From the NCBI GenBank assembly GCA_964342295.1, contig CAYFFC010000001.1, forward strand, positions 72,453 to 136,452: 64,000 nt of DNA, written 5' to 3'. The notes under the pieces are model-generated. The model saw only the letters and a program-made list of their open reading frames with translations. It did no database searches and had not been told where the DNA came from. A program made the position numbers and the translations under genes. This stretch comes from an uncultured Lutibacter sp. (GTDB lineage Bacteria > Bacteroidota > Bacteroidia > Flavobacteriales > Flavobacteriaceae). Below, in pieces: positions 25,724-47,145 of the stretch (positions within the stretch are counted from its first letter, which is position 1; each line of letters opens with the position of its first letter).

Positions 25724-25749
25724 ATTTGTTTTGTTTTATTAAAAATAGA

Positions 25750-26556: not shown

Positions 26557-26562
26557 TACTTA

Positions 26563-28155: not shown

Positions 28156-28230
28156 ATTATAAATAATTTTGCTTTTAGTTACTTAAAACTAAATTTTAAT
28201 GATTGTTTCTAATTGAGATATTTAACCGAT

Positions 28231-29100: not shown

Positions 29101-29160
29101 TTATTACAACTATTAATCATCTCTTTTTATATGGGTTAATTAAATTAATAGTTGTAATAA
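29101..29160. repeat. Perfect 17-bp inverted repeat with 26-nt spacer upstream of tetR
   Basis: ttattacaactattaat (29101-29117) / attaatagttgtaataa (29144-29160). Confidence 0.75.
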
Positions 29161-29212
29161 TTTCATTTTAACTAGTAATACTGCTATATTTACAATAAAT
29201 ACTTAGTACTTT

Positions 29213-29881
29213 ATGAATAATTTAAGCATAAATTTTGATTTAAATCAAGAATTATTTTCAAAAAATCCTGTTTCCTCAGAGTTGGGACAAAAAATCTTAT
29301 CAAAAAGTATTGAATTAATTAATGAAATTGGATTTGAAGCTTTTACATTTAAAAAATTAGGGAAAGCTATTAATTCACCGGAAAGTTCTATTTACAGGTA
29401 TTTTAAAAATAAACACATGTTACTTGTTTATTTAACAAGCTGGTATTGGTCTTGGGCCGATTATCAAATAGTTTTTGCAACAACAAATATTAACTCGGCT
29501 AAAGAAAGACTTGTAAAGACCATCAGTATTTTAACACAACCGGTAATGGAGTCCACTTCTATACCTTACATTAATGAAACCCTTTTGAGTAATATTATAA
29601 TTTCAGAATCTATAAAATCGTACCACACAAAAAATGTAGATGAAGAAAATAAGAAAGGGTATTTTAAAGCATACAAAAGAGTAGTTCAAAGAGTAAGTGA
29701 TATTTTTTTGGAATTGAAACCAGATTTTAAATACCCCCATATGTTGGTTTCAACAATTATTGAAGGAACACATCATCAAAAATATTTTGCTGAACATTTA
29801 CCCTCATTAACCGATATAACTAAAGAAAAAAATACCATAGAACAGTTTTATACTGAAATGGCATTAAATTTTATTAAATAA
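29213..29881 (+). CDS. TetR/AcrR family transcriptional regulator
   Basis: IGFEAFTFKKLG...ESSIYRYFKNK helix-turn-helix. Confidence 0.9.
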   Translation: MNNLSINFDLNQELFSKNPVSSELGQKILSKSIELINEIGFEAFTFKKLGKAINSPESSIYRYFKNKHMLLVYLTSWYWSWADYQIVFATTNINSAKERLVKTISILTQPVMESTSIPYINETLLSNIIISESIKSYHTKNVDEENKKGYFKAYKRVVQRVSDIFLELKPDFKYPHMLVSTIIEGTHHQKYFAEHLPSLTDITKEKNTIEQFYTEMALNFIK

Positions 29882-29897
29882 TTTCTAACTAAAAAAA

Positions 29898-31757: not shown

Positions 31758-31767
31758 AAAATATTAT

Positions 31768-32382
31768 ATGAGAACACAAACTAAAGAAACTCAAGAAAAT
31801 TTGACTCCAAAATTAGCACATGATATTTTGGTTCAAGGAAATAATCGATTTGTTGAAAACTTAAAGGCGCAAAGAAATCTGAAAGACCAAGTTTTTGAAA
31901 CCAGTAAAGGCCAATACCCTTTTGCGGTTATATTAAGCTGCATAGATTCAAGGGTACCCGCTGAAATTGTTTTTGACCAAGGTATTGGTGATATTTTTAG
32001 CGTGCGTGTTGCCGGTAATATTGTAAACGAAGATATTTTAGGTTCTATGGAATACGCCTGTAAAGTAGCAGGATCAAAAATAGTAGTGGTAATGGGTCAT
32101 ACAAAATGTGGCGCAGTTACATCGGCTTGTCAAGGCGTTGAGCTGGGAAATATTACACCGTTACTTGAAAAAATAAAACCGGCCGTTAATTCAATAAAAA
32201 AAGATGATACCGCATTAACTAATGAGCAAATTGAAGAAGTTGGTGCAATAAATGTTAATTTATCTATTGAAAAGATAAGAGAAGAAAGTCCGATTCTTGC
32301 AGAAATGGAGAAAAACGAAGAAATTGAAATTGTAGGGGCAACTTATGATGTGCATACTGGCAAAGTAACGTTTTTTGATTAA
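31768..32382 (+). CDS. Beta-carbonic anhydrase (copy 2)
   Basis: LSCIDSRVP and GHTKCGAV; close paralogue of the gene at 25112-25723. Confidence 0.93.
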   Translation: MRTQTKETQENLTPKLAHDILVQGNNRFVENLKAQRNLKDQVFETSKGQYPFAVILSCIDSRVPAEIVFDQGIGDIFSVRVAGNIVNEDILGSMEYACKVAGSKIVVVMGHTKCGAVTSACQGVELGNITPLLEKIKPAVNSIKKDDTALTNEQIEEVGAINVNLSIEKIREESPILAEMEKNEEIEIVGATYDVHTGKVTFFD

Positions 32383-34442: not shown

Positions 34443-34793
34443 CTATTCGTTATGCAACCAAGCTTTTTTAGCCAATAATTGCTCTTCAGTTTCTTCGTGA
34501 TCCTCATCAGGAACACAACAATCAACCGGACAAACAGATGCACATTGTGGTTCATCATGAAAACCTTTACACTCAGTACATTTATCTGTTACAATAAAGT
34601 AAAATTCATCCGATATAGGTTCATTCATTTCGTCAGCATCAGCCTCACCACCTCCCGGTAGCGTAATAGTTCCGCTTAAAGCTGTTTCTTCTGAATAGGC
34701 CCACTCGCTATCCGGTTCATAAATTGCATTATTAGGACATTCTGAAATACATGCATCACAATTTATGCATTCGTCAGTAATTTTAATAGCCAT
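34443..34793 (-). CDS. 2[4Fe-4S] ferredoxin (YfhL/Alvin-type, strongly acidic)
   Basis: CINCDACISECP and CTECKGFHDEPQCASVCP. Confidence 0.93.
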   Translation of the reverse strand: MAIKITDECINCDACISECPNNAIYEPDSEWAYSEETALSGTITLPGGGEADADEMNEPISDEFYFIVTDKCTECKGFHDEPQCASVCPVDCCVPDEDHEETEEQLLAKKAWLHNE

Positions 34794-34824: not shown

Positions 34825-34897
34825 CAAATTTATATAAATTCATTTAACTCAAAGTGACAAAAATCATATCCTGACATAAAAAGTAATTTTATCTTTG
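34825..34897. promoter_or_regulatory. Divergent promoters for ferredoxin (-) and korA (+) with a central FNR/CRP-like box
   Basis: TAAATTTG on the minus strand (34825-34832), GTGAC-AAAA-ATCAT (34854-34867), TATCTTTG (34890-34897). Confidence 0.6.
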
Positions 34898-34978: not shown

Positions 34979-36835
34979 ATGACAAAAGCGAAAGCACCTC
35001 ATCATACCGAAATGCTCGAAACTGTAGTGATACGTTTTGTTGGTGATTCAGGAGATGGTATGCAACTTACCGGTACACAATTTTCCGGAACATCGGCCAT
35101 GTTTGGAAACGACATTGCAACTTTTCCAAACTATCCTTCTGAAATTAGAGCACCGCAAGGAAGTTTGTACGGTGTTTCTGGATTTCAGGTACATATTGGA
35201 AGTGTTGAAATAAGTACTCCGGGAGACAATTTAGATTTATTGGTGGCAATGAATCCGGCCGGTTTAAAAACTAATTTACACGCCGTAAAACCGGGTCATA
35301 CCATTATTGTTGATACCGATGCCTTTACCAAGAAAAATCTTGAAAAAGCTGAGTATGACGCAAATCCGCTTGAAGATGGCAGCTTAGATAATTACAGGGT
35401 AATTGAAGTTGCCATGACTTCATTAACAAAATTAGCTGTTAAAGATGTTGAAGGTTTAGACAATAAATCTATTACTCGTAGTAAAAACATGTTTGCCTTA
35501 GGAATGGTATATTGGATGTATAACAGATCTACTGATCATACCATCGAGTTTTTTCAAAATAAGTTTAAGTCAAAACCGCATATTGTTGAAGCCAATACAA
35601 AAGTGTTAAATGCCGGCTTTAACTTTGCGAATACTTTAGAATTAATACCTAATTCTTATACTATCTCACCTGCAGAAATGCCGGCAGGTACATACAGAAT
35701 TATAATGGGTAATACCGCAACGGCTTGGGGATTTTTAGCGGCCGCAGAAAAATCGGGCTTAGAATTGTTTTTAGGTTCGTATCCTATTACCCCTGCCACA
35801 GATATCTTGCATGAAATAGTTAAACACAAACACTTTGGTGTAAAAGCATTCCAGGCCGAAGATGAGATTGCCGGTATTGCATCATCTATTGGTGCTTCAT
35901 TTGCCGGTGATTTAGCTATTACTACAACTTCAGGTCCCGGCTTAGCCCTAAAAGGTGAAGCCATTGGCTTGGCGATGATGATTGAGTTACCGTTAGTAAT
36001 TGTAGATGTTCAACGTGGTGGCCCTTCAACCGGTTTGCCTACTAAAACAGAACAATCTGATTTGCTACAAGCTCTTTACGGAAGAAATGGTGAGAGCCCG
36101 GTAATTGTTATTGCAGCCAGTACACCGGCCAATTGCTTTAATTTTGCTTATGAAGCTGCCAAGCTAACTTTAGAACATATGACTCCGGTTATATTGTTAA
36201 CAGATGGTTATATTGCTAACGGTTCTGCTCCGTGGAAAATCCAATCAGTTTCAGAAATGCCTGAGATTAAAACTAATTTTGTAAAAGAAGCTACAGAAAA
36301 CTGGCATCCTTATGATAGAGATAACGCTACTCTTGCCAGAAATTGGGCAGTACCCGGAACACCAGGGTTGGAGCATCGTGTAGGAGGCTTAGAAAAAGAT
36401 GGTATTACCGGTAATGTTTCGTATGTACCGGAAAATCATGAAAAAATGACGCAAATAAGGGCTGAAAAAATTAAGCGTGTTCAAAATTACATTCCTGAAA
36501 TTGTTCCTGAATTTGCCCAAGAGGGCGATTTGTTGGTTGTTGGTTGGGGAGGTACATACGGTACCTTACATTCTGCTGTGAAACAAATGAATGAAGAAGG
36601 ATACCAAAATATTGGTTTTGCGCATTTCAACTATATAAATCCACTTCCAAAAAATACAGCAGACTTATTTAAAAAGTATAAGAATATTATTGTTTGTGAA
36701 TTAAACAGCGGACAGTTTGCAAAAGTACTGAAGATGAATTTTAATGGAATTGTATTTAATCAGTTTAATAAAGTTCAAGGATTACCATTTGGTAATAATG
36801 AATTAATCGAAAAATTTAAACATTTTGTAAATTAA
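34979..36835 (+). CDS. korA: 2-oxoacid:ferredoxin oxidoreductase alpha subunit (gamma-alpha fusion; 2-oxoglutarate or pyruvate)
   Basis: GDSGDGMQL, YPITPA, QAEDEIAG, TTSGPG, QRGGPSTGLPT. Confidence 0.9.
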   Translation: MTKAKAPHHTEMLETVVIRFVGDSGDGMQLTGTQFSGTSAMFGNDIATFPNYPSEIRAPQGSLYGVSGFQVHIGSVEISTPGDNLDLLVAMNPAGLKTNLHAVKPGHTIIVDTDAFTKKNLEKAEYDANPLEDGSLDNYRVIEVAMTSLTKLAVKDVEGLDNKSITRSKNMFALGMVYWMYNRSTDHTIEFFQNKFKSKPHIVEANTKVLNAGFNFANTLELIPNSYTISPAEMPAGTYRIIMGNTATAWGFLAAAEKSGLELFLGSYPITPATDILHEIVKHKHFGVKAFQAEDEIAGIASSIGASFAGDLAITTTSGPGLALKGEAIGLAMMIELPLVIVDVQRGGPSTGLPTKTEQSDLLQALYGRNGESPVIVIAASTPANCFNFAYEAAKLTLEHMTPVILLTDGYIANGSAPWKIQSVSEMPEIKTNFVKEATENWHPYDRDNATLARNWAVPGTPGLEHRVGGLEKDGITGNVSYVPENHEKMTQIRAEKIKRVQNYIPEIVPEFAQEGDLLVVGWGGTYGTLHSAVKQMNEEGYQNIGFAHFNYINPLPKNTADLFKKYKNIIVCELNSGQFAKVLKMNFNGIVFNQFNKVQGLPFGNNELIEKFKHFVN

Positions 36836-36837
36836 TT

Positions 36838-37851
36838 ATGGAAACAACTGCAGAAAAAAAATATACGTTTAAGGATTTTTCAAGCGATCAAGAAGTTCGT
36901 TGGTGCCCTGGTTGTGATGACTATGTTATTTTACGCTCAATGCAAAAGGCATTACCCGAAATGGGTGTAAAAAGAGAAGATGTAGTTTTTATTTCAGGTA
37001 TTGGATGTTCTTCACGGTTTCCATATTATATGAATACTTACGGAATGCATAGTATTCATGGCAGGGCTCCCGGAATTGCTTCAGGTGTAAAACTGGCAAA
37101 CCCCAACCTTAGTGTTTGGGTAATGACCGGTGATGGTGATGCCATGGCAATTGGTGGTAACCATTTTATTCATGTATTGAGAAGAAATATCGACTTGAAT
37201 ATTGTATTATTTAATAATGAAATTTATGGATTAACTAAGGGTCAGTTTTCACCAACTTCTCTAGTTGGTCAAAAAACAAAATCTTCGCCTTACGGAAATA
37301 CACAACCTCCGTTTCAACCTGGAGAGCTTGCTTTAGGGGCTCAAGCACGTTTTTTTGCACGTATTGGCGGAAACAACCCTAAAGATATGTCGAATATTTT
37401 TGTTGAAGCACACAAATTTAAAGGAACATCATTAATTGAGGTATTGCAAAATTGTGTGATTTTTAATGATGGTTGCTTTACAAATGTTACAGACAAGAAC
37501 GTTAAAGCCGACAAACAAATTTATTTGGAACACGGCAAGCCTATGATATTTGGTAAAAACAAAGATAAAGGACTTGTTTTAAATGGACTAAAATTAGAAG
37601 TTGTTACTATAGGTGAAAATGGTATTACAGAAGATGATATATTAGTACATAATGCCAAGGAAAAAGACCTAACCTTACATCAAATGTTGGTAAGATTAGA
37701 ATATCCTTTGGCAACAGGTATTATTAGAAGTTGTGATGATGTAACACTTGAAGAACACGAAAATGAACTTACGGAACAAGTTAAAGCCAATTCAAAATTC
37801 ACCAAAACCGATGATTTGTTTTTCTCCGGAGAAACCTATGAAGTTAAATAA
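36838..37851 (+). CDS. korB: 2-oxoacid:ferredoxin oxidoreductase beta subunit (TPP-binding)
   Basis: WCPGC, SGIGCSSR, HGRA, GDGD...GGNH, NNEIYGLTKGQ. Confidence 0.9.
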   Translation: METTAEKKYTFKDFSSDQEVRWCPGCDDYVILRSMQKALPEMGVKREDVVFISGIGCSSRFPYYMNTYGMHSIHGRAPGIASGVKLANPNLSVWVMTGDGDAMAIGGNHFIHVLRRNIDLNIVLFNNEIYGLTKGQFSPTSLVGQKTKSSPYGNTQPPFQPGELALGAQARFFARIGGNNPKDMSNIFVEAHKFKGTSLIEVLQNCVIFNDGCFTNVTDKNVKADKQIYLEHGKPMIFGKNKDKGLVLNGLKLEVVTIGENGITEDDILVHNAKEKDLTLHQMLVRLEYPLATGIIRSCDDVTLEEHENELTEQVKANSKFTKTDDLFFSGETYEVK

Positions 37852-37913
37852 TATATTAATATAGATGATAAAACAATAAGTTTAATTCTTTTAAATCTAA
37901 CTTTAATTAACAT

Positions 37914-38264
37914 ATGGGATCGGAAGCCATTATTGTATTTTTAATTGCCGGTATTGTTCTAGTTGCCGGAGCCAATTTTTTGTCGGGAATCATCTCTCAT
38001 AAATCCGACAATCCTCAAAAAAGAGAACCTTATGAAAGCGGTATGGTTACCATAGGCCCCACTTGGGTTCAATTTAAAGTTGGTTATTATTTATTTGCCG
38101 TTTTATTCTTAATTTTTGATGTAGAGGTGGCATTTCTAATTCCTTGGGCTGTAGTTTATAAAAGCATAGGAGCTATTGCATTTTTTGAGGTTTTAATATT
38201 TCTTATAATTTTAGGATTAGGCTTAGCCTATGCATGGAAAAAAGGAGCTTTACAATGGAAATAA
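37914..38264 (+). CDS. nuoA: Complex I subunit A
   Basis: [25 protein letters not shown]. Confidence 0.95.
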
Positions 38265-38815
38265 AAAACAATAATACCATTCCTGAAGATTTCCCGGGAA
38301 AAGTAATCCCGGCAGGTAATGGAGCAAACGTAATTGTTACGTCATTAGATAAAATAATAAACTGGGGGCGATCAAATTCATTATGGTCATTATACTTTGG
38401 AACCAGTTGCTGTGCAATTGAAATGATGCAAACAGGAGCTGCACGTCATGATTATTCTCGATTTGGATTTGAAGTTGCCAGACCTTCTCCAAGACAAGCC
38501 GATTTAATTATTATTGCCGGTACAATTGTTAACAAAATGGCACCGGTATTAAGGCGATTATACGACCAAATGGCAGAACCTAAATATGTGATTGCCATGG
38601 GTGCTTGTGCAATTTCAGGTGGACCATTTTTTTACAATACTTATTCTGTAGTTAAGGGCGCAGACCATGTAATTCCGGTTGATGTATATGTACCGGGTTG
38701 CCCGCCACGCCCAGAAGCGTTGCTTGAAGGCATGCTTATGCTTCAGGATAAAATCAGAAAAGAAAGTTTAAAGCACAAAATTAATCCTGTTGAAGGTTTT
38801 GATGAAGGTAAATAA
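38255..38815 (+). CDS. nuoB: Complex I subunit B
   Basis: [30 protein letters not shown]; start taken at MEIKNN, overlapping the nuoA stop. Confidence 0.96.
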
Positions 38816-38823
38816 TTTATAAA

Positions 38824-39300
38824 ATGACAAAAGAAGCATTACAAAAATTAATAAGTTCATGGTTTTCAAACTCTTCAGAAGCGGGATTGAGCTTTTTTAC
38901 GGAAGGATCAGAATTTTTAAATGTTGAAATCCAACCTGAATATTTACATAATTTTATGCATCAACTCAAAAATGAGCAAGAAACCTGTTTCGATTATTTA
39001 TTTTGCTTAACCGGGGTTGATTGGGGTAAAGAATTAGGAGTGGTTTACCACTTAGAATCAACAACATTAAGACACTCAATTGTTGTTAGAGTTAAAACCA
39101 ATGACCGTGAAAATCCGGCGATAGATACTGTTTCTGATATTTGGGCTACTGCCGAATTTCATGAGCGTGAAGTTTACGATTTTTTTGGTATTAAGTTTAA
39201 CAATCACCCAAATTTAAAACGCCTTTTCTTAACAGATGAATGGTCTGGATTTCCCTTAAGAAAAGATTATGAAGATGAAATCAATATGGTTATTAAATAA
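38824..39300 (+). CDS. nuoC: Complex I subunit C
   Basis: FDYLFCLTGVD, EREVYDFFGI, HPNLKRLFL, PLRKDY. Confidence 0.94.
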   Translation: MTKEALQKLISSWFSNSSEAGLSFFTEGSEFLNVEIQPEYLHNFMHQLKNEQETCFDYLFCLTGVDWGKELGVVYHLESTTLRHSIVVRVKTNDRENPAIDTVSDIWATAEFHEREVYDFFGIKFNNHPNLKRLFLTDEWSGFPLRKDYEDEINMVIK

Positions 39301-39306
39301 ATAAAA

Positions 39307-40128
39307 ATGAAAAAAAAATACACATTCATTATTTTAATAGTATTTGTTTTTAGTTTAATCTCATGTAAAAACAATGAACCAAAAGTTCCGGAAAAGAACT
39401 TTATAGCTAAACAACATAAAGCTGATGATGCCGTTAAACATTGGAGTTATGAAGGAGAAACTTCTCCTGAACATTGGGCAGAAATTGAAAAACACTCTAA
39501 TTGTGCCGGTAAAAAACAATCGCCTATTAATATCATTGATATAGATTCAAAGTATGTCTCAAAAGACAGTTTAAACTTAAAAGTTTATTGTTACACTCAA
39601 ACAATAATTCATGATGTAGTAAACAATGGGCATTCTGTACAGTTTGATTTTGAATTAGGAGATTCTATTATTGTTAAAAATGAAACTTTCCATTTAAAAC
39701 AAATTCACTTTCATGAACCTTCAGAACATACAATTGACGGTATTAGATACCCAATTGAAATTCATTTAGTGCATGCCAATAAAAAAGGAGAATATACGGT
39801 ATTAGGCATTCTAGGAAAAGAAGGAAAAGAACATGAGGACTTTGAATTTTTAGAAATGTTTTTGCCTGTTAAAAATGGTGAAACTAAAGCTATTGACAAG
39901 CCTTTTGACTTAAAAACAATCTTTCCGGCAAATATCGATGACTATTATTCTTATAAAGGCTCTTTAACAACACCTCCTTGTAGTGAAACAGTAGATTGGG
40001 TGGTGTTTAAAAATCCAATTGTTCTGTCGGTAAATCAAGTTTTAAAATTAAAGAAAAATATGCCTTTGAATAACTATAGAAATGAACAACCAATAAATGA
40101 TAGAGAGGTTATTAAAACATTTAACTAA
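39307..40128 (+). CDS. Alpha-carbonic anhydrase, predicted lipoprotein, inside the nuo operon
   Basis: Lipobox LISC; HWSYEG, QSPINI, NNGHS, QIHFH, SEH, EIHLVH, GSLTTPPCSE, N-x-R-x-x-QP motifs. Confidence 0.93.
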   Translation: MKKKYTFIILIVFVFSLISCKNNEPKVPEKNFIAKQHKADDAVKHWSYEGETSPEHWAEIEKHSNCAGKKQSPINIIDIDSKYVSKDSLNLKVYCYTQTIIHDVVNNGHSVQFDFELGDSIIVKNETFHLKQIHFHEPSEHTIDGIRYPIEIHLVHANKKGEYTVLGILGKEGKEHEDFEFLEMFLPVKNGETKAIDKPFDLKTIFPANIDDYYSYKGSLTTPPCSETVDWVVFKNPIVLSVNQVLKLKKNMPLNNYRNEQPINDREVIKTFN

Positions 40129-40133
40129 AAATT

Positions 40134-41255
40134 ATGCAAACAACTTCTGTAAATAATAACTTTAAATCAGAAGAGTACTTCATCAATATGGGGCCTCAAC
40201 ATCCTGCTACACACGGAGTTTTAAGGCTGTTACTAACTATAGATGGTGAAATTATTAAAAAAGTAGAACCCGATTTAGGTTATATTCATCGCTCCATTGA
40301 AAAAATGTGTGAACGCGACAGTTATCAGCAAATAGTTCATTTAACTGACAGAATGGATTATCTTTCTTCACATATTAACAATGAAGCTGTTTGTCTTACT
40401 GTTGAAAAGGCATTGCAACTGGAAGTTCCTGAACGTGTTAAAGTAATTAGAACTATTATTGGTGAACTTACCAGAATAGCATCGCATTGCCTGTGGTGGG
40501 GTGTAATGGGAATGGATGTAGGTGCACTAACCACCTATTTTTACGGTTTTAGAGATCGTGAAATGATAAATGATATTTTTGAAGAAACTTGTGGTGCCAG
40601 ATTAACGATGAATTATAACATCCCTGGGGGATTAATGTTCGACATTCATCCTAACTTTGTGAAACGTACCAAAGCATTTGTAAAACACTTTAAAACCAAA
40701 ATCCCGGAATACGACAGGCTGTTAACCGGCAATGTTATATTTCAAAAAAGAACTAAAGGTGTGGGTGTTTTAACAAAAGAAGATGCTATTTCATTTGGCG
40801 CTTCAGGACCTGTTGCTAGAGGCTCAGGTTATTCTTGTGATGTACGAAAACATCATCCGTATAGCGCTTACAGCAATGTAAAATTTAATGAAGCCCTCCA
40901 AACTACCGGTGATACTTTTGCGCGTTATCAAGTACGTATACAAGAAATGTGGGAGTCGCTATCAATTATTGAACAATTAATAGACAATATACCCGACGGA
41001 GATTATAAAACTGCAACCAATACAGTAATTAAACTCCCTAAAGGAGAGTATTACCAAAAAGTTGAAACTGCTCGTGGAGAGTTGGGCGTATTTATTATTA
41101 GTACAGGAATAAAAAACCCATATCGATTGAAGTTTCGTTCTCCGGGGTTCTCAAACTTGTCATTGTTAAATCATATTACAGCAGGTGGTAAAATTGGAGA
41201 TTTAGTAGCTACTATGGCAACTTTAGATCTTGTAATACCTGATATAGACAGATAA
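40134..41255 (+). CDS. nuoD: Complex I subunit D
   Basis: GPQHPATHGVLRL, GYIHRSIEK, DRMDY, ETARGE; no NiFe CxxC motifs. Confidence 0.96.
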   Translation: MQTTSVNNNFKSEEYFINMGPQHPATHGVLRLLLTIDGEIIKKVEPDLGYIHRSIEKMCERDSYQQIVHLTDRMDYLSSHINNEAVCLTVEKALQLEVPERVKVIRTIIGELTRIASHCLWWGVMGMDVGALTTYFYGFRDREMINDIFEETCGARLTMNYNIPGGLMFDIHPNFVKRTKAFVKHFKTKIPEYDRLLTGNVIFQKRTKGVGVLTKEDAISFGASGPVARGSGYSCDVRKHHPYSAYSNVKFNEALQTTGDTFARYQVRIQEMWESLSIIEQLIDNIPDGDYKTATNTVIKLPKGEYYQKVETARGELGVFIISTGIKNPYRLKFRSPGFSNLSLLNHITAGGKIGDLVATMATLDLVIPDIDR

Positions 41256-41265
41256 AATAAAACAT

Positions 41266-42330
41266 ATGATTTCATTTTTAAGTATCACAAATAATATTCA
41301 CAATTGGTTGTTAAACTTCTTTTCTGAAAGTACCACCAGTTATATTGAAATGGTGTTAATTGCATTGGTTTATTTGGCCGTATTTGCGGTATTAGGGCTC
41401 TATTTAGTACTCCTTGAAAGAAGAGTGGCTGCCTGGTTTCAGCTAAGAATTGGTCCAAATCGTGTTGGTTTCCAAGGATTACTTCAAACTATGGCCGATG
41501 CACTTAAACTGGTTTCAAAAGAATTAACAGGAACAGTTAAAGCAGATAAATTTTTGTACAATTTAGCACCCTATTTTGTTATTGTCTCATCTTTAATGGC
41601 TTTGTCAGTATTTCCTTTTACCCAAAATTTACAGGCTTTTGACATAAATATCGGAATCTTTTTTTTAATTGCAATTTCATCAATTGGTGTTATTGGAATT
41701 TTATTGGGAGGTTGGGCTAGTAATAACAAATTTGCCCTAATAGGTGCTATGCGTAGTGGCGTACAAACCATAAGTTATGAACTTTCTGTTGGTTTGTCTT
41801 TACTAACCATGATATTGTTAACAGGGACCTTACAACTTTCTGAAATTATTGAAGTGCAAAAAAACGGATGGCTAATAGTACAAGGCCATGTACCGGCTGT
41901 AATTGCATTTATGATTTATATGATTTCCGGAACGGCAGAAACTAACAGGGCACCTTTTGATTTGGTTGAAGCAGAATCAGAACTTGGAGCAGGATTTCAT
42001 ACCGAGTATTCAGGTATGAAATTTGCCTATTTCTTTTTGGCCGAATTTATTAACATGTTTATAATTGCAGCTATAGCAACTACAATATTTTTTGGTGGTT
42101 GGCTATCGCCTTTTGGAATAACAGAGTCCATTCCTTGGTTAGGAGTTTTTTGGTTTTTAGCTAAAACTTTTGTCATTGTGTTTTTAATGATGTGGTTTCG
42201 ATGGACTTTCCCACGTTTACGTGTAGATCAGCTATTAACATTGGAATGGAAATACCTGCTACCACTTAACCTGTTGAACATAGTGCTTATGGCGCTAATT
42301 GTTTGGCTTAATTTAACCATTCAGTTTTAG
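41266..42330 (+). CDS. nuoH: Complex I subunit H
   Basis: ERRVAAWFQLRIGPN, ADALKL, SYE, AETNRAPFDL, TEYSG, FPRLRVDQ. Confidence 0.96.
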   Translation: MISFLSITNNIHNWLLNFFSESTTSYIEMVLIALVYLAVFAVLGLYLVLLERRVAAWFQLRIGPNRVGFQGLLQTMADALKLVSKELTGTVKADKFLYNLAPYFVIVSSLMALSVFPFTQNLQAFDINIGIFFLIAISSIGVIGILLGGWASNNKFALIGAMRSGVQTISYELSVGLSLLTMILLTGTLQLSEIIEVQKNGWLIVQGHVPAVIAFMIYMISGTAETNRAPFDLVEAESELGAGFHTEYSGMKFAYFFLAEFINMFIIAAIATTIFFGGWLSPFGITESIPWLGVFWFLAKTFVIVFLMMWFRWTFPRLRVDQLLTLEWKYLLPLNLLNIVLMALIVWLNLTIQF

Positions 42331-42335
42331 AGTTT

Positions 42336-42812
42336 ATGAGTTATTTTGGAGATATATACAAAGGAATAAAAACGTTGTTAACCGGAATGAGTATCACCGG
42401 GAAATACTTCTTAAATTCAAGACGAGGAGCAATTACGCAACAATACCCAGATAATAGGGCAACCCTAAAAATGTTTGAGCGCTTTAGAGGCGAAGTTGTA
42501 ATGCCTCATGATGAAAATAATGAGCACCGCTGTACCGGATGCCAAAAGTGTGAAATTGCTTGCCCCAATGGTACTATTGAAATTGTTTGGGACAGAATAA
42601 TAGATCCTGAAACCGGAAAAAAGAAAAAAGTTATTGATAAACATATTTACCATTTAGGCATGTGTACCATGTGTGGGCTGTGTATTGAAGCTTGCCCAAC
42701 CGATGCTATAGTATGGGCTCAAAATTTTGAAAATTCTGTGTACGATAGAACACAATTAACAAGAGTTTTAAACAAACCCGGATCTAAACTAAAACCCGGT
42801 GTAGAAGAATAA
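42336..42812 (+). CDS. nuoI: Complex I subunit I (2x 4Fe-4S)
   Basis: CTGCQKCEIACP and CTMCGLCIEACP. Confidence 0.95.
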   Translation: MSYFGDIYKGIKTLLTGMSITGKYFLNSRRGAITQQYPDNRATLKMFERFRGEVVMPHDENNEHRCTGCQKCEIACPNGTIEIVWDRIIDPETGKKKKVIDKHIYHLGMCTMCGLCIEACPTDAIVWAQNFENSVYDRTQLTRVLNKPGSKLKPGVEE

Positions 42813-42816
42813 GCTT

Positions 42817-43332
42817 ATGGAGAAAATTATATTTTACATTTTAGCATTTATAATGATTGTGTTTGCTATTGCCTCTGTAAGCAGTAGAAAAATGCTACGT
42901 TCGGTAATTTATTTGTTATTTACTTTAATTGGTATTGCCGGGCTTTATTTTTTAATTGATTATAACTTTTTGGCAGCCATTCAATTAACTGTTTACGCAG
43001 GTGGTATTATTGTATTAATAATATTCTCTGTGCTATTAGTACATCATATAGAATTGAAATTAGAGATTGCCAAAAAATCAAAACAATTTTTAGCATTAAT
43101 TGCTTGTGCAATAGGTTTAGGATTATTTTTAACAACAATACATTCTTTTAATTTTTCAGTTTCTAACAAATCTGTTTCAACCTCCACAAGTGAGATTGGA
43201 ACTTTATTGCTAAGTTATAAGGAGGGCGGATTTATTTTGCCATTTGAAGTTGTAAGTGTATTGCTGTTGGCAGCAATGATTGGAGCAATTATTATAGCTA
43301 AGGGAACATTAACAAAATCACCAAAAAAATAA
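42817..43332 (+). CDS. nuoJ: Complex I subunit J
   Basis: QLTVYAGGIIVL, LPFEVVSVLLLAAMIGA. Confidence 0.93.
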   Translation: MEKIIFYILAFIMIVFAIASVSSRKMLRSVIYLLFTLIGIAGLYFLIDYNFLAAIQLTVYAGGIIVLIIFSVLLVHHIELKLEIAKKSKQFLALIACAIGLGLFLTTIHSFNFSVSNKSVSTSTSEIGTLLLSYKEGGFILPFEVVSVLLLAAMIGAIIIAKGTLTKSPKK

Positions 43333-43336
43333 CAAA

Positions 43337-43654
43337 ATGATAGCCGAAGTAAGTATCTACGAACTATTAACACTAACCTCCATCATATTTTTTATAGGTG
43401 TATATGGTTTTTTGACCAGAAAAAATTTAATTTCAATTTTAATTTCAATAGAACTTATTTTAAATGCAACAGTTATAAACTTTGTTGTAATAAATAAATA
43501 CCTATATCCTGATATGTTACAAGGAGTGGTTTTTGCCATTTTCATAATTGCTGTTGCAGCCGCCGAAACGGCGCTGGCTGTTGCATTAATTATTAATTTA
43601 TACAGGCAATTAAACTCTGTTGAAGTAAAAGAAACCGAATCATTGAAGTACTAA
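43337..43654 (+). CDS. nuoK: Complex I subunit K
   Basis: SIELILNA, VAAAETA. Confidence 0.93.
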   Translation: MIAEVSIYELLTLTSIIFFIGVYGFLTRKNLISILISIELILNATVINFVVINKYLYPDMLQGVVFAIFIIAVAAAETALAVALIINLYRQLNSVEVKETESLKY

Positions 43655-43666
43655 ATATTTATAAAA

Positions 43667-45586
43667 ATGAATCTAAAATTTATCTTTTTAATTCCATTAA
43701 TTCCGTTAGCGGTATTTTTAGTACTCGGAATTTTTAATAAAAAAATTAAACCGAATATCTCAGGTTACATTGGCGTTTTAGGATTACTTGTTTCTGGAGT
43801 ATTATCATTTATAACGGCATATCAATATTTCTTTGTTTCAGAAAAACTCAATGGTATTTATCAAACTTTTGTTGATAAAACCGTTTGGATGAATTTTACA
43901 GATACGCTAAGAATTGATATGGGAGTTCTTATTGACCCTATATCTGTGATGATGCTTATTGTTGTTTCTATAGTATCCTTAATGGTGCACATATACAGTA
44001 GAGGTTATATGAAAGGTGATGAAGGTTACACCAAATTCTTTGCCTTTTTATCTTTATTCTCTTTCTCTATCTATGGTTTAGTACTGGCTACTAATTTATT
44101 TCAAATTTATATTTTTTGGGAATTGGTGGGTGTTTCATCCTATTTACTTATAGGTTATTATTACACAAAACCATCGGCAGTTGCAGCAGCAAAAAAGGCA
44201 TTTATTGTAACGCGTTTTGCCGATTTAGGGTTTTTAATTGGTATATTAACCATTGGTTATTATACCGGTACTTACGATTTTGAAACTTTAAATAATCCTG
44301 AAGGTTCTGCTATTTTAAATTGGGCTGCTACATCATTTATGGGGCTATCAGCTATTACTTGGGCACTCATTTTAATATTTATTGGTGGGGCAGGTAAATC
44401 GGCTATGTTCCCTTTACACATTTGGTTGCCCGATGCTATGGAAGGGCCTACTCCGGTTTCAGCATTAATTCATGCAGCTACTATGGTTGTTGCAGGTGTT
44501 TATTTAGTGGCGCGCTTATTTCCTATGTTCTATTTTGTTGAAGAAGGATTTGCTTTAAATATTGTAGCTTATGTAGGCGCGTTTTCATCATTGTTTGCGG
44601 CGGTAATTGCAATTACACAAACCGATATAAAACGAGTGTTGGCTTTTTCAACTATGTCGCAACTTGGTTATATGATGCTTGGCTTAGGTGTATCGGGATA
44701 TGAGGGGCACGAAGGAGTTGGCTATATGGCTTCTATGTTTCATTTGTTTACACATGCTATGTTTAAGGCGTTATTGTTTTTAGGAGCAGGTTCCGTAATT
44801 CACGCAGTACACAGCAACTACTTAAAAGATATGGGCGGTTTACGAAAGTACATGCCTATTACAAATATTACTTTTTTAATTGCTGCAATTGCTATAGCAG
44901 GTGTACCCCCATTTGCAGGCTTTTTTAGTAAAGATGAAATTTTAATCGCAGCTTTTGAGCATAACAAAATTATATATGTTATCGGATTATTTGTAGCGGG
45001 CTTAACAGCTTTTTATATATTCAGAATTTACTTTGGAATATTTTGGGGTAAAGAAAATAAGTACGAACATACTCCGCATGAATCACCGGTTTCAATGACC
45101 TTCCCTTTGCTTGTTTTAGCATTTTTAAGCATTTCTGTCGGTTTTATTCCTTTTAGCAACTTTGTTACTGCAGATAAGGCCGGTTTTGAAGCGCACTTAA
45201 ACTATCCAATGGCTGTTATTGCAGTTGCTGTAGGACTAATTGGAATTGCCTTAGCTTGGGTTTTTTATAAAAAAGAAAATAATTTATCTAATCGCTATGC
45301 TAAAGCGTTTGGAATCTTTTACAAATGGGCAAGTGATAAATTTTATTTTGATGAAATTTACCTATTCATCACCAAAAAAATTCTATTTAAAAGAGTTGCG
45401 GCTCCAATAGCAAAATTTGATAAAAAATATGTTGATGGCACTATGGAAGGCATTGGTAATAAAACAGCAGTAACCTCAGAAAAAATAAAAGGATTACAAT
45501 CCGGAAGAATACAAGACTATGCCTATGCATTTGTAATGGGAGTTGTTATAATTGGATTGGTTTTTATTTATTTATGGACAAGTTAG
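43667..45586 (+). CDS. nuoL: Complex I subunit L
   Basis: WELVG, KSAMFPLHIWLPDAMEGPTPVSALIHAATMV, STMSQLG, HAMFKALLF; lateral helix region present. Confidence 0.96.
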   Translation: MNLKFIFLIPLIPLAVFLVLGIFNKKIKPNISGYIGVLGLLVSGVLSFITAYQYFFVSEKLNGIYQTFVDKTVWMNFTDTLRIDMGVLIDPISVMMLIVVSIVSLMVHIYSRGYMKGDEGYTKFFAFLSLFSFSIYGLVLATNLFQIYIFWELVGVSSYLLIGYYYTKPSAVAAAKKAFIVTRFADLGFLIGILTIGYYTGTYDFETLNNPEGSAILNWAATSFMGLSAITWALILIFIGGAGKSAMFPLHIWLPDAMEGPTPVSALIHAATMVVAGVYLVARLFPMFYFVEEGFALNIVAYVGAFSSLFAAVIAITQTDIKRVLAFSTMSQLGYMMLGLGVSGYEGHEGVGYMASMFHLFTHAMFKALLFLGAGSVIHAVHSNYLKDMGGLRKYMPITNITFLIAAIAIAGVPPFAGFFSKDEILIAAFEHNKIIYVIGLFVAGLTAFYIFRIYFGIFWGKENKYEHTPHESPVSMTFPLLVLAFLSISVGFIPFSNFVTADKAGFEAHLNYPMAVIAVAVGLIGIALAWVFYKKENNLSNRYAKAFGIFYKWASDKFYFDEIYLFITKKILFKRVAAPIAKFDKKYVDGTMEGIGNKTAVTSEKIKGLQSGRIQDYAYAFVMGVVIIGLVFIYLWTS

Positions 45587-45616
45587 TAGTGATAAAAATA
45601 ATTAGAAAATAGAAAT

Positions 45617-47104
45617 ATGGATATATTATCTCTTTTTGTAGTTGTACCTATAATAACCATTTTAGTATTGGTTTTTACCAAGGGGCTTAAACAGGCTCGT
45701 ATAGTATCAATGCTTGGCAGCTTGGTGCAACTTGCAATGGCCATTAATTTAGTTTTTGCCTACCTAAATGAAAGGGCAGTAAACAACGCAATTATGTTAT
45801 TTACCAAAAATGTGGTTTGGTTTAAACAATTTAATATTCACTACAGTATTGGTGTTGATGGTATTTCGGTTTCCTTACTATTACTAACAGCAATAGTTGT
45901 ATTGGCAGGGGTATTTATTTCATGGAAAATGAAAGATCTGCCTAAAGAGTTTTTCATTTCATTATTAGTTTTAGCAACCGGCGTTTACGGGTTCTTTATT
46001 TCTATTGATTTGTTTACGCTTTTTGTGTTTTATGAAATTGCAGTTATTCCAATGTATCTTTTAATTGGTATTTGGGGCTCAGGAAGAAAAGAATATTCGG
46101 CAATGAAACTAACGCTAATGTTAATGGGTGCATCTGCAATTTTATTAGTCGGAATTTTAGGGATTTATTTCAATTCAAATGCAGATGGAGGAGCGCTAAC
46201 TTTTAATATTTTAGAAATTGCCCAAGTAAACATTCCTGCTGAAGCTCAAAAATTATTTTTCCCTCTTACGTTTATTGGATTTGGGGTTTTAGGCGCTTTA
46301 TTCCCTTTTCACACTTGGTCACCTGATGGGCATGCTTCTGCCCCTACAGCAGTTTCCATGTTACATGCAGGTGTACTTATGAAATTGGGTGGTTATGGAA
46401 TTTTTAGGGTCGCTATGTATTTATTACCTATTGGGGCTTTAGACTGGTCATGGGTATTTATAATATTATCTGCAACAGGAGTTATTTATGGTGCCTTTGG
46501 TGCAATAAAACAAACCGATTTAAAATATATAAACGCTTACTCTTCAGTTAGTCACTTAGGTATGGTTCTATTCGCCCTATTAATGTTAAATAAAACTGCT
46601 TGGAATGGCGCCATTTTACAATCACTCTCTCACGGATTTATGACAGCCTTGTTTTTTGCACTGATTGGTATGATTTATGGGCGAACACATACAAGAGATG
46701 TCACAAAATTAGGAGGTCTGTTAAAAGTAATTCCTTTTATATCTGCAATATATGTTATTGCCGGAATGGCATCTTTAGGCTTACCCGGTTTTAGCGGTTT
46801 TGTAGCAGAGATGAATATTTTTGTAGGTGCCTTTGAACACGATAATTTATTTTACAGAATTGCAACCATTATTTCGGTTTCTGCCATTGTTGTAACTGCG
46901 GTTTATATTTTAAGAGTTGTAGGTATAATGCTTATGGGTCCTGTTAAAAACGAACAATTTTTAACCTTACAAAAAGTAACTTGGTTCGAAAAATTTGGAA
47001 TTTTATTGTTGTTAATTCCAATAGTTGGAATGGGAGTAGCCCCTTTATGGTTAAGCGAAATGATTTTAGAAAGTGTGCAACCTTTTATTAGTGTAATTGT
47101 TTAA
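45617..47104 (+). CDS. nuoM: Complex I subunit M
   Basis: GVDGIS, FYE...PMY, PFHTW, HASAPT, LMKLGGYG, YSSVSH, LGLPG. Confidence 0.95.
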   Translation: MDILSLFVVVPIITILVLVFTKGLKQARIVSMLGSLVQLAMAINLVFAYLNERAVNNAIMLFTKNVVWFKQFNIHYSIGVDGISVSLLLLTAIVVLAGVFISWKMKDLPKEFFISLLVLATGVYGFFISIDLFTLFVFYEIAVIPMYLLIGIWGSGRKEYSAMKLTLMLMGASAILLVGILGIYFNSNADGGALTFNILEIAQVNIPAEAQKLFFPLTFIGFGVLGALFPFHTWSPDGHASAPTAVSMLHAGVLMKLGGYGIFRVAMYLLPIGALDWSWVFIILSATGVIYGAFGAIKQTDLKYINAYSSVSHLGMVLFALLMLNKTAWNGAILQSLSHGFMTALFFALIGMIYGRTHTRDVTKLGGLLKVIPFISAIYVIAGMASLGLPGFSGFVAEMNIFVGAFEHDNLFYRIATIISVSAIVVTAVYILRVVGIMLMGPVKNEQFLTLQKVTWFEKFGILLLLIPIVGMGVAPLWLSEMILESVQPFISVIV

Positions 47105-47145
47105 AGCGTGATGAAGTTCATCCTTAAAAAAGAATATTAAATACT

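What the first reader, a model, noticed from the sequence alone, without database searches (positions are those of the whole stretch)
39307..40128. Intact lipoprotein alpha-carbonic anhydrase embedded between nuoC and nuoD: candidate new complex I-coupled CO2/bicarbonate system
Seen: a 273-aa alpha-CA with all three Zn histidines (QIHFH, EIHLVH), the proton-shuttle His (NNGHS), the gatekeeper Thr (SLTTPP), the disulfide Cys pair (NCAG, PPCS) and a lipobox (LISC). It lies 6 nt after the nuoC stop and 5 nt before the nuoD start, with no IS scar. Established: known complex I/CA couplings use other proteins, namely CupA/CupB on cyanobacterial NDH-1 and beta-CA-like DabA with a NuoL-like DabB (both cytoplasmic), and gamma-CAs on plant/protist mitochondrial complex I. 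I know of no described alpha-CA in a nuo operon. Inference: a membrane-tethered periplasmic CA made together with the pump could use extruded H+ to convert seawater HCO3- into membrane-permeant CO2 (the substrate of OFOR carboxylation). Alternatively it could hydrate OFOR-derived CO2 to buffer or add to the periplasmic proton pool. The neighbouring SulP/beta-CA units would handle the cytoplasmic side.
Basis: partly seen in the sequence, partly recalled or inferred. Interest (0 to 1): 0.9.

Follow-up and report, generated by a model that had tools for sequence, protein, structure and literature searches.

The report
Carbonic anhydrase gene inside complex I operon
An intact, exported carbonic anhydrase gene really does sit between two core complex I genes in this marine Lutibacter genome and in five related uncultured lineages, but nearly all relatives lack it, so it looks like an optional add-on switched on together with the respiratory operon, not a new part of complex I.

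Summary
Window 39307-40128 (+) encodes a 273-aa alpha-carbonic anhydrase (CA) with every catalytic residue, the disulfide cysteines and a lipobox. It lies 6 nt after nuoC and 5 nt before nuoD, in a fdx / korAB / nuoABC-CA-DHIJKLMN cluster of a Lutibacter genome.

The arrangement is not an assembly artefact: the identical gene sits in the same place on 17 metagenome contigs. It is also not unique. Five diverged CA lineages (68-80% aa identity) occupy the same slot, form one clade and are under purifying selection (dN/dS 0.10-0.22).

It is rare and patchy, though.
- 29 Lutibacter species and 79 other Flavobacteriaceae nuoD loci lack it.
- A relative about 93% identical in DNA to one carrier lacks it.
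- The flanking Nuo proteins reject monophyly of the carriers (AU p = 1e-4).

This pattern suggests lateral spread into a permissive spacer that holds other cargo in other genera.

The lipobox is shared with homologues outside nuo operons, and nothing indicates docking to complex I. The korAB + 11-subunit nuo layout is the family norm without the CA.

Best reading: an accessory periplasmic CA whose expression is tied to 2-oxoglutarate-driven respiration. A true complex I-coupled CO2/bicarbonate machine remains possible (about 10%) but is unsupported.

The parts
39307..40128 (+). Alpha-carbonic anhydrase gene, 273 aa, the only alpha-CA in this genome
   Evidence: ORF and translation; PF00194 at E 2.3e-50; PDB alpha-CAs at E 1e-52; a single PF00194 hit in the whole assembly.
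39307..39366 (+). Signal peptide (aa 1-19: MKKKYTFIILIVFVFSLIS) ending in the lipobox L-I-S-C; Cys20 codon at 39364-39366
   Evidence: Read directly from the sequence. Stand-alone homologues P0007-P0010, P0018 and P0023 carry the same signal peptide plus Cys architecture. Cleavage and lipidation are inferred, not tested.
39367..39435 (+). Linker of about 23 residues (aa 21-43) between the lipid anchor and the catalytic domain
   Evidence: Alignments to solved alpha-CAs begin at residues 43-45. This stretch varies among homologues.
39436..40125 (+). Catalytic alpha-CA domain. Zn ligands H134 (39706-08), H136 (39712-14) and H153 (39763-65). Proton shuttle H109 (39631-33). E140 and T221 (39967-69). 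Disulfide pair C66 (39502-04) and C225 (39979-81)
   Evidence: Residue-by-residue alignment to 4c3t, 8w7x and 4x5s. All of these residues are invariant in alignment A1.
38824..39300 (+). nuoC (158 aa); its stop codon lies 6 nt before the CA start
   Evidence: PF00329 at E 1.3e-41, TIGR01961.
40134..41255 (+). nuoD (373 aa); its start lies 5 nt after the CA stop; the only NuoD in the genome
   Evidence: PF00346 at E 1.2e-87, NF008974. Single locus in the assembly.
37914..38815 (+). nuoA and nuoB
   Evidence: PF00507 and PF01058.
41266..48573 (+). nuoH, I, J, K, L, M, N. No nuoE/F/G in the operon
   Evidence: Pfam hits; ORF list.
34979..37851 (+). korA/korB-type 2-oxoacid:ferredoxin oxidoreductase, directly upstream of nuoA
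   Evidence: POR, POR_N and TPP_enzyme_C. korB is adjacent to nuoA in 67 of 79 Flavobacteriaceae loci.
34443..34793 (-). Divergent 116-aa 2x[4Fe-4S] ferredoxin
   Evidence: Fer4 families. Conserved next to korA in six other Lutibacter genomes.
34890..34897 (+). Candidate Bacteroidota -7 promoter element (TATCTTTG), 82 nt upstream of korA. The next + strand match downstream of 37402 is only at 40574, inside nuoD
   Evidence: Pattern scan. The motif occurs at chance frequency across the window, so this is only a consistency check.
25112..32382 (.). Two SulP + beta-CA units: beta-CA 25112-25723 (-), Usp 25750-26556 (-), SulP 26563-28155 (-); TetR 29213-29881 (+), SulP-STAS 29898-31757 (+), beta-CA 31768-32382 (+)
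   Evidence: Pfam. Not found in the 12 kb upstream of lepA-fdx-korAB-nuo in six other Lutibacter genomes.

Best explanation
**What it is.** This is an ordinary, catalytically competent bacterial alpha-carbonic anhydrase (CA). It is exported by a lipoprotein signal peptide and tethered in the periplasm by a linker of about 23 residues.

**How it got there.** The gene descends from the stand-alone alpha-CAs of Flavobacteriaceae. It was inserted, without a promoter, as a precise ORF into the roughly 10-nt nuoC-nuoD spacer of the korAB-nuo operon. That operon encodes a 2-oxoglutarate:ferredoxin oxidoreductase plus an 11-subunit NDH-1 with no NADH module of its own.

**How it is expressed (inferred).** It is transcribed from the operon promoter, so its synthesis tracks 2-oxoglutarate-driven respiration.

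**What it does (inferred).** It equilibrates CO2, HCO3- and H+ in the periplasm without docking to complex I.
- KorAB releases one CO2 per electron pair fed to NDH-1, so the net reaction in the oxidative mode should be hydration of escaping CO2.
- That reaction keeps CO2 efflux downhill and buffers periplasmic pH next to the proton pump.
- It also yields HCO3-, which the neighbouring SulP transporters and cytoplasmic beta-CAs could recover for anaplerotic carboxylation.

**Its status.** The gene is accessory. It has persisted or moved laterally among a few marine lineages and is absent from nearly all of their relatives.

**Shown here:** enzyme class and intact active site, exact position, recurrence, purifying selection, patchy distribution.

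**Inferred:** export and lipidation, co-transcription, reaction direction, physiological benefit.
For: **Enzyme identity and intact site:**

**Fit into the operon.** The spacers are 6 nt and 5 nt, with no strong terminator-like site and no IS-like repeats around the gene. No TAnnTTTG element lies on the + strand between 37403 and 40573. Two metatranscriptome contigs run from nuoC into the CA start: X2 covers 39147-39382 at 100% identity, and X1 covers 37873-39318 at about 98.6%.

**Recurrence.** The identical gene is on 17 contigs. Five further lineages, P0002-P0006 at 68-80% identity, all sit in nuoC-CA-nuoD.

**Origin.** The six CAs form one clade (SH-aLRT 98). That clade lies among stand-alone Flavobacteriaceae CAs found in unrelated contexts.

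**Selection.** dN/dS is 0.10-0.22, and all catalytic residues are kept.

**Accessory status.**
- 0 of 29 Lutibacter species loci and 0 of 79 other Flavobacteriaceae nuoD loci carry it.
- 0 of 103 alpha-CA loci from species-representative genomes lie next to nuo genes.
- CA-bearing L055 is about 93% nt-identical to CA-less Yeosuana L104.
- The flanking Nuo proteins reject monophyly of the carriers (delta lnL 146, p-AU 1e-4).
- Four-fold-site divergence of the CA is 0.465, below that of the flanks at 0.56-0.69.

**No nuo-specific adaptation.** Homologues outside nuo share the lipobox and overall architecture.

**Context.** korAB and a ferredoxin are conserved beside the operon. Two SulP/beta-CA units lie 7-14 kb upstream.
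Against: - **Thin RNA support.** No transcript evidence covers the CA body or the CA-nuoD junction. The two RNA contigs are short assemblies, and DNA carry-over cannot be excluded.
- **Unknown location.** Sequence alone does not show whether the lipoprotein faces the periplasm from the inner or the outer membrane, or is surface-exposed.
- **Weak physical case for CO2 trapping.** For a single small cell in seawater, CO2 escapes from the periplasm much faster than even a fast CA can hydrate it (my own reasoning). A pure CO2-trapping benefit is therefore doubtful, and the selective advantage may lie elsewhere, for example in pH buffering or in particle or sediment niches.
- **Position may mean little.** Staying in the slot may simply reflect that a gene without its own promoter cannot easily move, not that co-expression is adaptive.
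- **Local context known for one lineage only.** The SulP/beta-CA neighbourhood is documented only for this lineage.
Confidence: 0.55

Rival explanations
1. Incidental passenger. A generic periplasmic alpha-CA landed by chance in a permissive intergenic spacer and uses the operon's promoter. The cell benefits, at most, from having any periplasmic CA. The link to korAB-nuo has no functional meaning.
For: - Nuo spacers in Flavobacteriaceae often hold cargo. Inserts over 150 nt occur at nuoC-D (7 of 108 loci), nuoJ-K (5 of 73), korB-nuoA (5 of 67) and nuoD-H (3 of 109).
- The same nuoC-nuoD slot carries an unrelated di-haem lipoprotein of about 496 aa in Maribacter-type MAGs and a 23S-rRNA-IVS protein gene in a Yeosuana MAG.
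- The closest stand-alone CAs sit in unrelated contexts.
- The distribution is patchy and rare.
- dN/dS is 2-5 times higher than for the nuo genes.
Against: - The gene is kept intact under purifying selection in six lineages, at synonymous divergence up to about 1.2.
- It is the only alpha-CA in this streamlined 2.36-Mb genome.
- It appears to have spread or persisted across genus-level boundaries, always in this slot.
- In this genome it lies near two extra SulP/beta-CA units that six congeners lack at that site. That hints at selection on inorganic-carbon handling.
Confidence: 0.28
2. The CA is a functional, possibly physically docked, partner of the 11-subunit NDH-1. It would use pumped protons to turn periplasmic HCO3- into CO2, feeding reductive carboxylation by KorAB, or it would add scalar protons by hydrating CO2. 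This would be a periplasmic analogue of the cyanobacterial NDH-1/CupA and DAB systems.
For: - The position between two core subunit genes, with 5-6 nt spacers, favours expression in step with the complex.
- The lipid anchor and linker of about 23 residues would let the enzyme sit at a membrane surface.
- KorAB uses or produces CO2 and is in the same operon.
- The slot is conserved in six lineages.
- Other AI notes in this scan report CA genes beside complex-I-like Ehr modules in CPR bacteria. Those notes are unchecked and concern a different system.
Against: - No sequence feature separates the nuo-embedded CAs from stand-alone homologues; they share the lipobox, the linker type and the domain.
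- 108 related nuo operons work without it, including a relative about 93% nt-identical to one carrier.
- The carriers are not monophyletic on Nuo proteins, so there is no co-evolving partner lineage.
- Most Bacteroidota lipoproteins go to the outer membrane (background knowledge), which would preclude docking.
- The Pfam scan of the protein returned only PF00194 and no CupA, DabA or gamma-CA type family.
- Whether KorAB or NDH-1 ever run in reverse here is unknown.
Confidence: 0.12
3. Assembly or binning artefact: a chimeric contig joins a CA gene to nuo genes.
For: The genome is a 71-contig draft and appears to be a metagenome assembly.
Against: The same junctions occur on 17 contigs from different samples and assemblers, and in five diverged lineages. 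An RNA contig also crosses the nuoC-CA junction.
Confidence: 0.01

Closest known systems
Periplasmic bacterial alpha-carbonic anhydrases: Thermovibrio ammonificans TaCA (4c3t), Sulfurihydrogenibium SspCA/SazCA (4g7a, 4x5s), Persephonella (6eki), Neisseria gonorrhoeae (1kop); functionally also the Helicobacter pylori and Ralstonia eutropha periplasmic alpha-CAs
   Same: Same fold family, at E 1e-40 to 1e-52. It has the three Zn histidines, the His64-type proton shuttle, the Glu106/Thr199 pair, the conserved disulfide and an N-terminal export signal. The expected role is periplasmic CO2/HCO3-/pH handling.
   Different: The gene is embedded, without its own promoter, between nuoC and nuoD of a korAB-nuo operon. 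It has a lipobox and not a plain signal peptide, although its stand-alone flavobacterial relatives share that lipobox.
Stand-alone lipoprotein alpha-CAs of Flavobacteriaceae (Polaribacter, Tamlana, Flavivirga, Aquimarina and others; 54-64% identity)
   Same: These are its direct relatives and evident source. They have the same length, lipobox and domain, and the nuo-embedded clade nests among them.
   Different: They sit in unrelated neighbourhoods as separate genes, and none of 103 loci is next to nuo.
Cyanobacterial NDH-1MS/MS' with CupA/CupB (ChpY/ChpX)
   Same: Both involve an 11-subunit, ferredoxin-type NDH-1 without NuoEFG that is associated with CO2/HCO3- conversion.
   Different: CupA/B are not alpha-CAs. 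They sit on the cytoplasmic side, bind dedicated NdhD3/F3 subunits and hydrate CO2 vectorially. Here the enzyme is an exported classical alpha-CA, the operon has no specialised NuoL/M paralogues, and no binding is shown.
DAB / MpsAB (DabA beta-CA-like subunit + DabB NuoL-like subunit)
   Same: Genetic linkage of a CA-type protein to a complex-I-type cation-translocating subunit.
   Different: DabA is cytoplasmic and beta-CA-like, and the system is a two-gene unit without redox modules. No such domain is present here.
Gamma-carbonic-anhydrase domain of plant and protist mitochondrial complex I
   Same: A CA-family protein associated with complex I.
   Different: Those are gamma-class, lie on the matrix side, and are structurally integral and universally retained in their lineages. 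Here the enzyme is alpha-class, exported and dispensable: 108 related operons lack it.
Campylobacter/Helicobacter complex I without NuoE/F, fed by 2-oxoglutarate:acceptor oxidoreductase via flavodoxin (discussed in Spero et al. 2015, PMC4453560)
   Same: A partial nuo operon lacking the NADH module, fed by an OFOR-type enzyme. This is the likely logic of the korAB-fdx-nuo cluster here.
   Different: That system has no CA in the operon. The electron carrier here is presumably the adjacent 2x[4Fe-4S] ferredoxin.

Membership tests
Alpha-carbonic anhydrase (Pfam PF00194) | Significant match to the family profile over the full domain | tested here: met
   172 bits against a cut-off of 27; profile positions 2-253 of 254.
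Alpha-carbonic anhydrase (Pfam PF00194) | Three zinc-binding histidines (His94, His96 and His119 in human CA II numbering) | tested here: met
   H134, H136 and H153 align to the HFH and H-x-VH motifs of solved CAs and are invariant in 11 homologues.
Alpha-carbonic anhydrase (Pfam PF00194) | Catalytic Glu106/Thr199 pair and a His64-type proton shuttle | tested here: met
   E140, T221 and H109 are all invariant.
Alpha-carbonic anhydrase (Pfam PF00194) | CO2 hydration activity | not testable with these tools
   Needs an assay of the recombinant enzyme.
Exported bacterial alpha-CA with a conserved disulfide | Cys pair equivalent to Cys23-Cys203, plus an N-terminal signal peptide | tested here: met
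   C66 and C225 are invariant. The N-terminus has a KKK n-region and a hydrophobic h-region.
Bacterial lipoprotein | Lipobox [LVI][ASTVI][GAS]C at the end of the signal peptide | tested here: met
   L-I-S-C at residues 17-20. Cys is conserved in P0001-P0010. Lipidation and the final membrane are not testable here.
Complex I (NDH-1) subunit or accessory subunit | Retained wherever the homologous complex is encoded | tested here: not met
   Absent from 29 Lutibacter and 79 other Flavobacteriaceae nuo loci, including a relative about 93% nt-identical to one carrier.
Complex I (NDH-1) subunit or accessory subunit | Physical association with the complex | not testable with these tools
   Needs BN-PAGE or complexome profiling, or structure work. 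No multimer prediction tool was available.
Part of the nuo transcription unit | Co-transcription with nuoC and nuoD | tested here: inconclusive
   The spacers are 6 nt and 5 nt, with no strong terminator-like site and no -7 promoter motif around the gene. RNA contigs cross only the nuoC-to-CA junction.
CupA/CupB (ChpXY), DabA (DUF2309) and gamma-CA families | Sequence homology to those families | tested here: not met
   The Pfam scan of the protein returned PF00194 only.

The most novel reading that the evidence does not exclude
The nuo-embedded alpha-CA would be a true functional partner of a ferredoxin-driven 11-subunit NDH-1, tethered at the periplasmic face. There it would couple the protons pumped by the complex to HCO3-/CO2 interconversion. 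It would either supply CO2 to KorAB running as a carboxylase, or convert respiratory CO2 into extra periplasmic protons plus recoverable bicarbonate. That would make it a periplasmic-side counterpart of the cyanobacterial NDH-1/CupA and DAB systems, spread as a mobile cassette among marine Flavobacteriaceae.
Probability: 0.1. Interest if true: 0.85.

Novelty: new variant of a known kind. Interest (0 to 1): 0.45.

Why it matters
Every known pairing of a carbonic anhydrase with complex-I-type machinery acts on the cytoplasmic or matrix side: cyanobacterial CupA/B, DAB, and the mitochondrial gamma-CAs. An exported alpha-CA expressed in step with a ferredoxin-fed NDH-1 and a CO2-releasing oxidoreductase would be the first case on the periplasmic side.

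If co-expression proves adaptive, it gives a simple genetic handle on an open question: how marine heterotrophs link respiration, periplasmic pH and inorganic-carbon recycling.

The system also offers a natural experiment. Carriers and non-carriers differ by one precisely inserted gene, including a pair about 93% identical in flanking DNA. Cultured CA-less Lutibacter strains could receive the cassette.

If it is only a passenger, it still shows that respiratory operon spacers in Flavobacteriaceae act as landing pads for secreted-protein genes.

Tried and rejected
- **Sigma-70 promoter scan.** Matches were fewer than in shuffled sequence, and the model is wrong for Bacteroidota, so I discarded it. 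The Bacteroidota -7 motif scan is at chance frequency window-wide and serves only as a weak consistency check.
- **Recombination tract around the insert.**
  - L055 against its CA-less relative L104 shows a uniform 89-98% identity up to the nuoC stop.
  - Identity then dips to 80-88% in the first 150 nt of nuoD.
  - That nuoD 5' end is not closer to other CA carriers, so there is no clear imported flank. The result is inconclusive.
- **Synonymous divergence as a clock.** NG86 dS of the flanks is near saturation. The four-fold-site check confirms only a moderate, consistent deficit for the CA. I treat this as suggestive of lateral spread, not proof.
- **More sequence around the metagenome loci.** I tried to look for SulP/beta-CA near the other carriers, but those records are not held, so co-occurrence could not be tested.
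- **RNA support for the CA body and the CA-nuoD junction.** Only 4 of the metatranscriptome runs listed hold parts of the wider nuoA-nuoD stretch, only one holds any of the CA region, and none has contigs in the CA body.
- **Independent nuo insertions of other alpha-CAs.** None was found in 103 species-representative loci or 52 metagenome loci, apart from the known clade. The scans depend on peptide patterns, so very different CAs could be missed.
- **Structure prediction and fold search.** Not run. The sequence match to solved alpha-CAs (E 1e-52) already settles the fold, and no multimer prediction was available.
Full report
**1. Observation**

Window 39307-40128 (+) is an open frame of 273 codons.
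- It matches Pfam Carb_anhydrase (PF00194) over the whole domain: E 2.3e-50, 172 bits against a cut-off of 27.
- It matches solved bacterial alpha-CAs at E 1e-40 to 1.5e-52: 4c3t, 4x5s, 4g7a, 6eki and 1kop.
  - Zn ligands H134 and H136 (QIHFH) and H153 (EIHLVH);
  - the shuttle His H109 (NNGHS);
  - E140 and T221 (SLTTPP);
  - the disulfide pair C66 and C225.
- All of these are invariant in an 11-sequence alignment.
- The N-terminus MKKKYTFIILIVFVFSLIS-C has a lipobox, L-I-S-C. Homology to mature CAs starts at residues 43-45, which leaves a linker of about 23 residues.
- The flanking ORFs are NuoC (38824-39300) and NuoD (40134-41255). The spacers are 6 nt and 5 nt.
- No transposon-like repeats flank the gene. 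Its G+C (0.29) is slightly below that of its neighbours.

**2. Context**

- The gene order is: ferredoxin (34443-34793, minus strand), korA, korB, nuoA, B, C, CA, D, H, I, J, K, L, M, N, then a 107-aa ORF.
- This is the only NuoD and the only alpha-CA in the 2.36-Mb, 71-contig assembly.
- nuoE/F/G are not in the operon, but NuoE/F-like ORFs occur elsewhere in the genome on contigs C24, C11, C55 and C44. "Loss of nuoEFG" therefore holds for the operon only, not for the genome.
- Two SulP + beta-CA units lie 7-14 kb upstream.
- The genus is Lutibacter. Two same-genus handles are identical in Nuo proteins and in contig length to Lutibacter aestuarii and L. maritimus records.
- The lepA-fdx-korAB-nuo synteny is conserved in six other Lutibacter genomes, but the SulP/beta-CA units are not in their upstream 12 kb.

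**3. Is it an artefact, and does it recur?**

- The identical protein is encoded on 17 contigs from several independent samples and assemblies. Every place shown has nuoC-CA-nuoD.
- The five closest other proteins occupy the same slot: P0002 and P0003 at 78-80%, P0004 at 76%, P0005 at about 70% and P0006 at 68%. Where the contig is long enough, korB lies upstream.
- The next relatives, at 54-64%, are stand-alone genes in unrelated neighbourhoods.
- In a tree of 70 homologues, the six nuo-embedded CAs form one clade (SH-aLRT 98) nested among flavobacterial stand-alone CAs.
- These CAs are under purifying selection, with dN/dS 0.10-0.22. The flanking nuo genes give 0.01-0.10.

The arrangement is therefore real, arose once as far as the CA tree shows, and is maintained.

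**4. How widespread is it?**

It is rare and patchy.
- Only 2 of 36 other Lutibacter genomes have any alpha-CA (41-42% identity), and those are not near nuo.
- All 29 Lutibacter nuoD loci retrieved have contiguous nuoC-nuoD, with gaps of 6-21 nt and two non-coding gaps of 87 and 139 nt.
- None of 79 further Flavobacteriaceae nuoD loci has a CA there.
- Two pattern scans over 185,579 species genomes found no second species representative with a CA of this clade. None of the 103 alpha-CA loci retrieved lies next to nuo.
- The metagenome scan added only one more contig, from the P0004 lineage.
- Carriers have close non-carrier relatives:
  - L055 is about 93% nt-identical in korB, nuoA, nuoB and nuoC to a CA-less Yeosuana MAG.
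  - The nuoD 5' end of L052 is 94% identical to that of CA-less Lutibacter flavus.
- On concatenated NuoA/B/C/D/H proteins, the five carriers are scattered among non-carriers of at least two genera. An AU test rejects their monophyly (delta lnL 146, p 1e-4).
- Differences at four-fold-degenerate sites are lower for the CA (pooled 0.465) than for the flanks (0.56-0.69). NG86 dS is about half that of the flanks.

Together this favours lateral spread of the CA into the same slot, probably by homologous exchange through the conserved nuo flanks, over an ancient insertion followed by dozens of precise losses. The flanks are near saturation and no clear recombination tract was found, so this stays an inference.

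**5. The slot**

- Spacers in flavobacterial nuo operons quite often carry inserts longer than 150 nt: nuoC-D in 7 of 108 loci, nuoJ-K in 5 of 73, korB-nuoA in 5 of 67 and nuoD-H in 3 of 109.
- At nuoC-nuoD itself, three MAGs (two Maribacter, one unclassified) carry a protein of about 496 aa. It has a signal peptide with a lipobox-like cysteine, two CxxCH haem motifs and no Pfam match.
- A Yeosuana MAG carries a 23S-rRNA-IVS protein gene (PF05635) at the same junction.

The junction is therefore permissive, which weakens any argument from position alone. Two of the three kinds of coding cargo seen in this slot are exported lipoproteins, which is at least compatible with recruitment of periplasmic helpers of respiration.

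**6. Expression**

- The 5-6 nt spacers leave no room for a promoter.
- No strong terminator-like site lies around the gene on the + strand.
- No TAnnTTTG element lies on the + strand between 37403 and 40573. One lies 82 nt upstream of korA, but the motif is at chance frequency overall.
- In marine metatranscriptomes, one 236-nt contig (39147-39382, 100% identity) and one 1,456-nt contig (37873-39318, about 98.6%) run from nuoC or nuoA into the CA start.
- Nothing covers the CA body or the CA-nuoD junction, and coverage of the organism is very low.

Co-transcription is likely but only weakly documented.

**7. Mechanism (inferred)**

KorAB-type enzymes release CO2 and reduce ferredoxin. An 11-subunit NDH-1 without an N-module plausibly oxidises that ferredoxin and pumps protons. 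This is the logic known from Campylobacter and Helicobacter and from cyanobacterial NDH-1 (background knowledge; Spero et al. 2015, PMC4453560).

A CA made from the same transcript would appear in the periplasm in proportion to this pathway. In the oxidative mode the cell exports CO2 into water of about pH 8, so the net reaction would be hydration. That would:
- keep CO2 efflux downhill;
- buffer pH at the pumping face;
- yield bicarbonate that the SulP/beta-CA units could recycle.

I see no sequence feature pointing to docking. The lipobox, linker type and domain are shared with stand-alone homologues. The final membrane of a Bacteroidota lipoprotein cannot be read from its sequence.

A simple diffusion argument (my reasoning) says that trapping escaping CO2 in a periplasm about 30 nm wide is inefficient. 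The benefit may therefore be pH buffering, or may be specific to particles or sediments.

**8. Comparison with known systems**

As an enzyme, this is a regular member of the exported bacterial alpha-CAs, and all testable defining features are met.

It is not a member of the CupA/B, DabA or gamma-CA families, because the only Pfam hit is PF00194. It also fails the one testable criterion for a complex I subunit, which is retention wherever the complex is encoded.

What is new is the genomic arrangement. Three full-text searches found no paper describing an alpha-CA in a nuo operon.

Earlier AI notes from this scan describe CA genes beside cofactor-less complex-I-like Ehr modules in CPR bacteria. 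That is a different system, with cytoplasmic CAs, and I did not check it.

**9. Verdict**

- The best reading is an accessory periplasmic alpha-CA whose expression is tied to the korAB-nuo operon (0.55).
- The rivals are an incidental passenger (0.28) and a true complex I-coupled CO2/bicarbonate device (0.12).
- It is a new variant of a known kind, of moderate interest (0.45). It is curious and cleanly testable, but rare, dispensable and without evidence of physical coupling.

Noticed in passing
L114 1393-3001, L115 1396-3001, L119 1397-3001 (between nuoC and nuoD): Two Maribacter MAGs and one unclassified Flavobacteriaceae MAG carry a 496-498-aa ORF in the same nuoC-nuoD slot. It has a signal peptide with a lipobox-like Cys and two CxxCH haem motifs (CFSCH, CVKCH/CASCH), and it matches no Pfam family. 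It may be an uncharacterised periplasmic di-haem cytochrome recruited to the nuo operon.
   Followed up: partly
L125 2544-3001 (nuoC-nuoD); L052 10406-10765 (nuoK-nuoL); census: Small 23S-rRNA-intervening-sequence protein genes (PF05635) and other inserts of 150-500 nt recur in several spacers of flavobacterial nuo operons (nuoC-D, nuoJ-K, korB-nuoA, nuoD-H). These operon spacers seem to act as landing pads.
   Followed up: partly
window 25112-32382: Two divergently oriented SulP + beta-CA units, one with Usp and one with TetR, lie just upstream of lepA-fdx-korAB-nuo. Six other Lutibacter genomes keep the lepA-fdx-korAB-nuo synteny but have no SulP or beta-CA in the upstream 12 kb. This lineage has therefore gathered three CA genes and two SulP genes within 15 kb.
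   Followed up: partly
G000 contigs C24:32106-34493, C11:46940-47893, C55:4865-5305, C44:16621-17130: Four NuoF-like (Complex1_51K) ORFs lie outside the nuo operon, and two of them also carry NuoE-like domains in the same frame (575 aa and 544 aa). A further separate NuoE-like ORF (118 aa) lies on C24. They could be bifurcating hydrogenase or dehydrogenase modules, or RnfC. Whether any of them serves the 11-subunit complex is unknown.
   Followed up: no
window 39310-39318: A metatranscriptome contig (run X1, 37873-39318) ends in the A9 run at the CA start and continues with 10 more A's. This may be internal oligo-dT priming, polyadenylation or an assembly break at the homopolymer.
   Followed up: no
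L055 3422-3571 against L104: The first 150 nt of nuoD in a CA carrier are only 80-88% identical to its CA-less relative, against about 93% elsewhere. This could be one edge of a recombination tract or just the variable 5' end of nuoD.
   Followed up: partly
window 48578-48901: A 107-aa ORF directly after nuoN, in the same orientation with a 4-nt gap, has no Pfam match. It may be an uncharacterised last gene of the operon.
   Followed up: no
whole assembly G000: At 2.36 Mb (95% complete), this genome is smaller than nearly all other comparably complete Lutibacter genomes sampled (mostly 2.5-5.1 Mb). It also sits on a long branch in the Nuo tree, which suggests a streamlined pelagic offshoot of a mostly sediment- or host-associated genus.
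   Followed up: no
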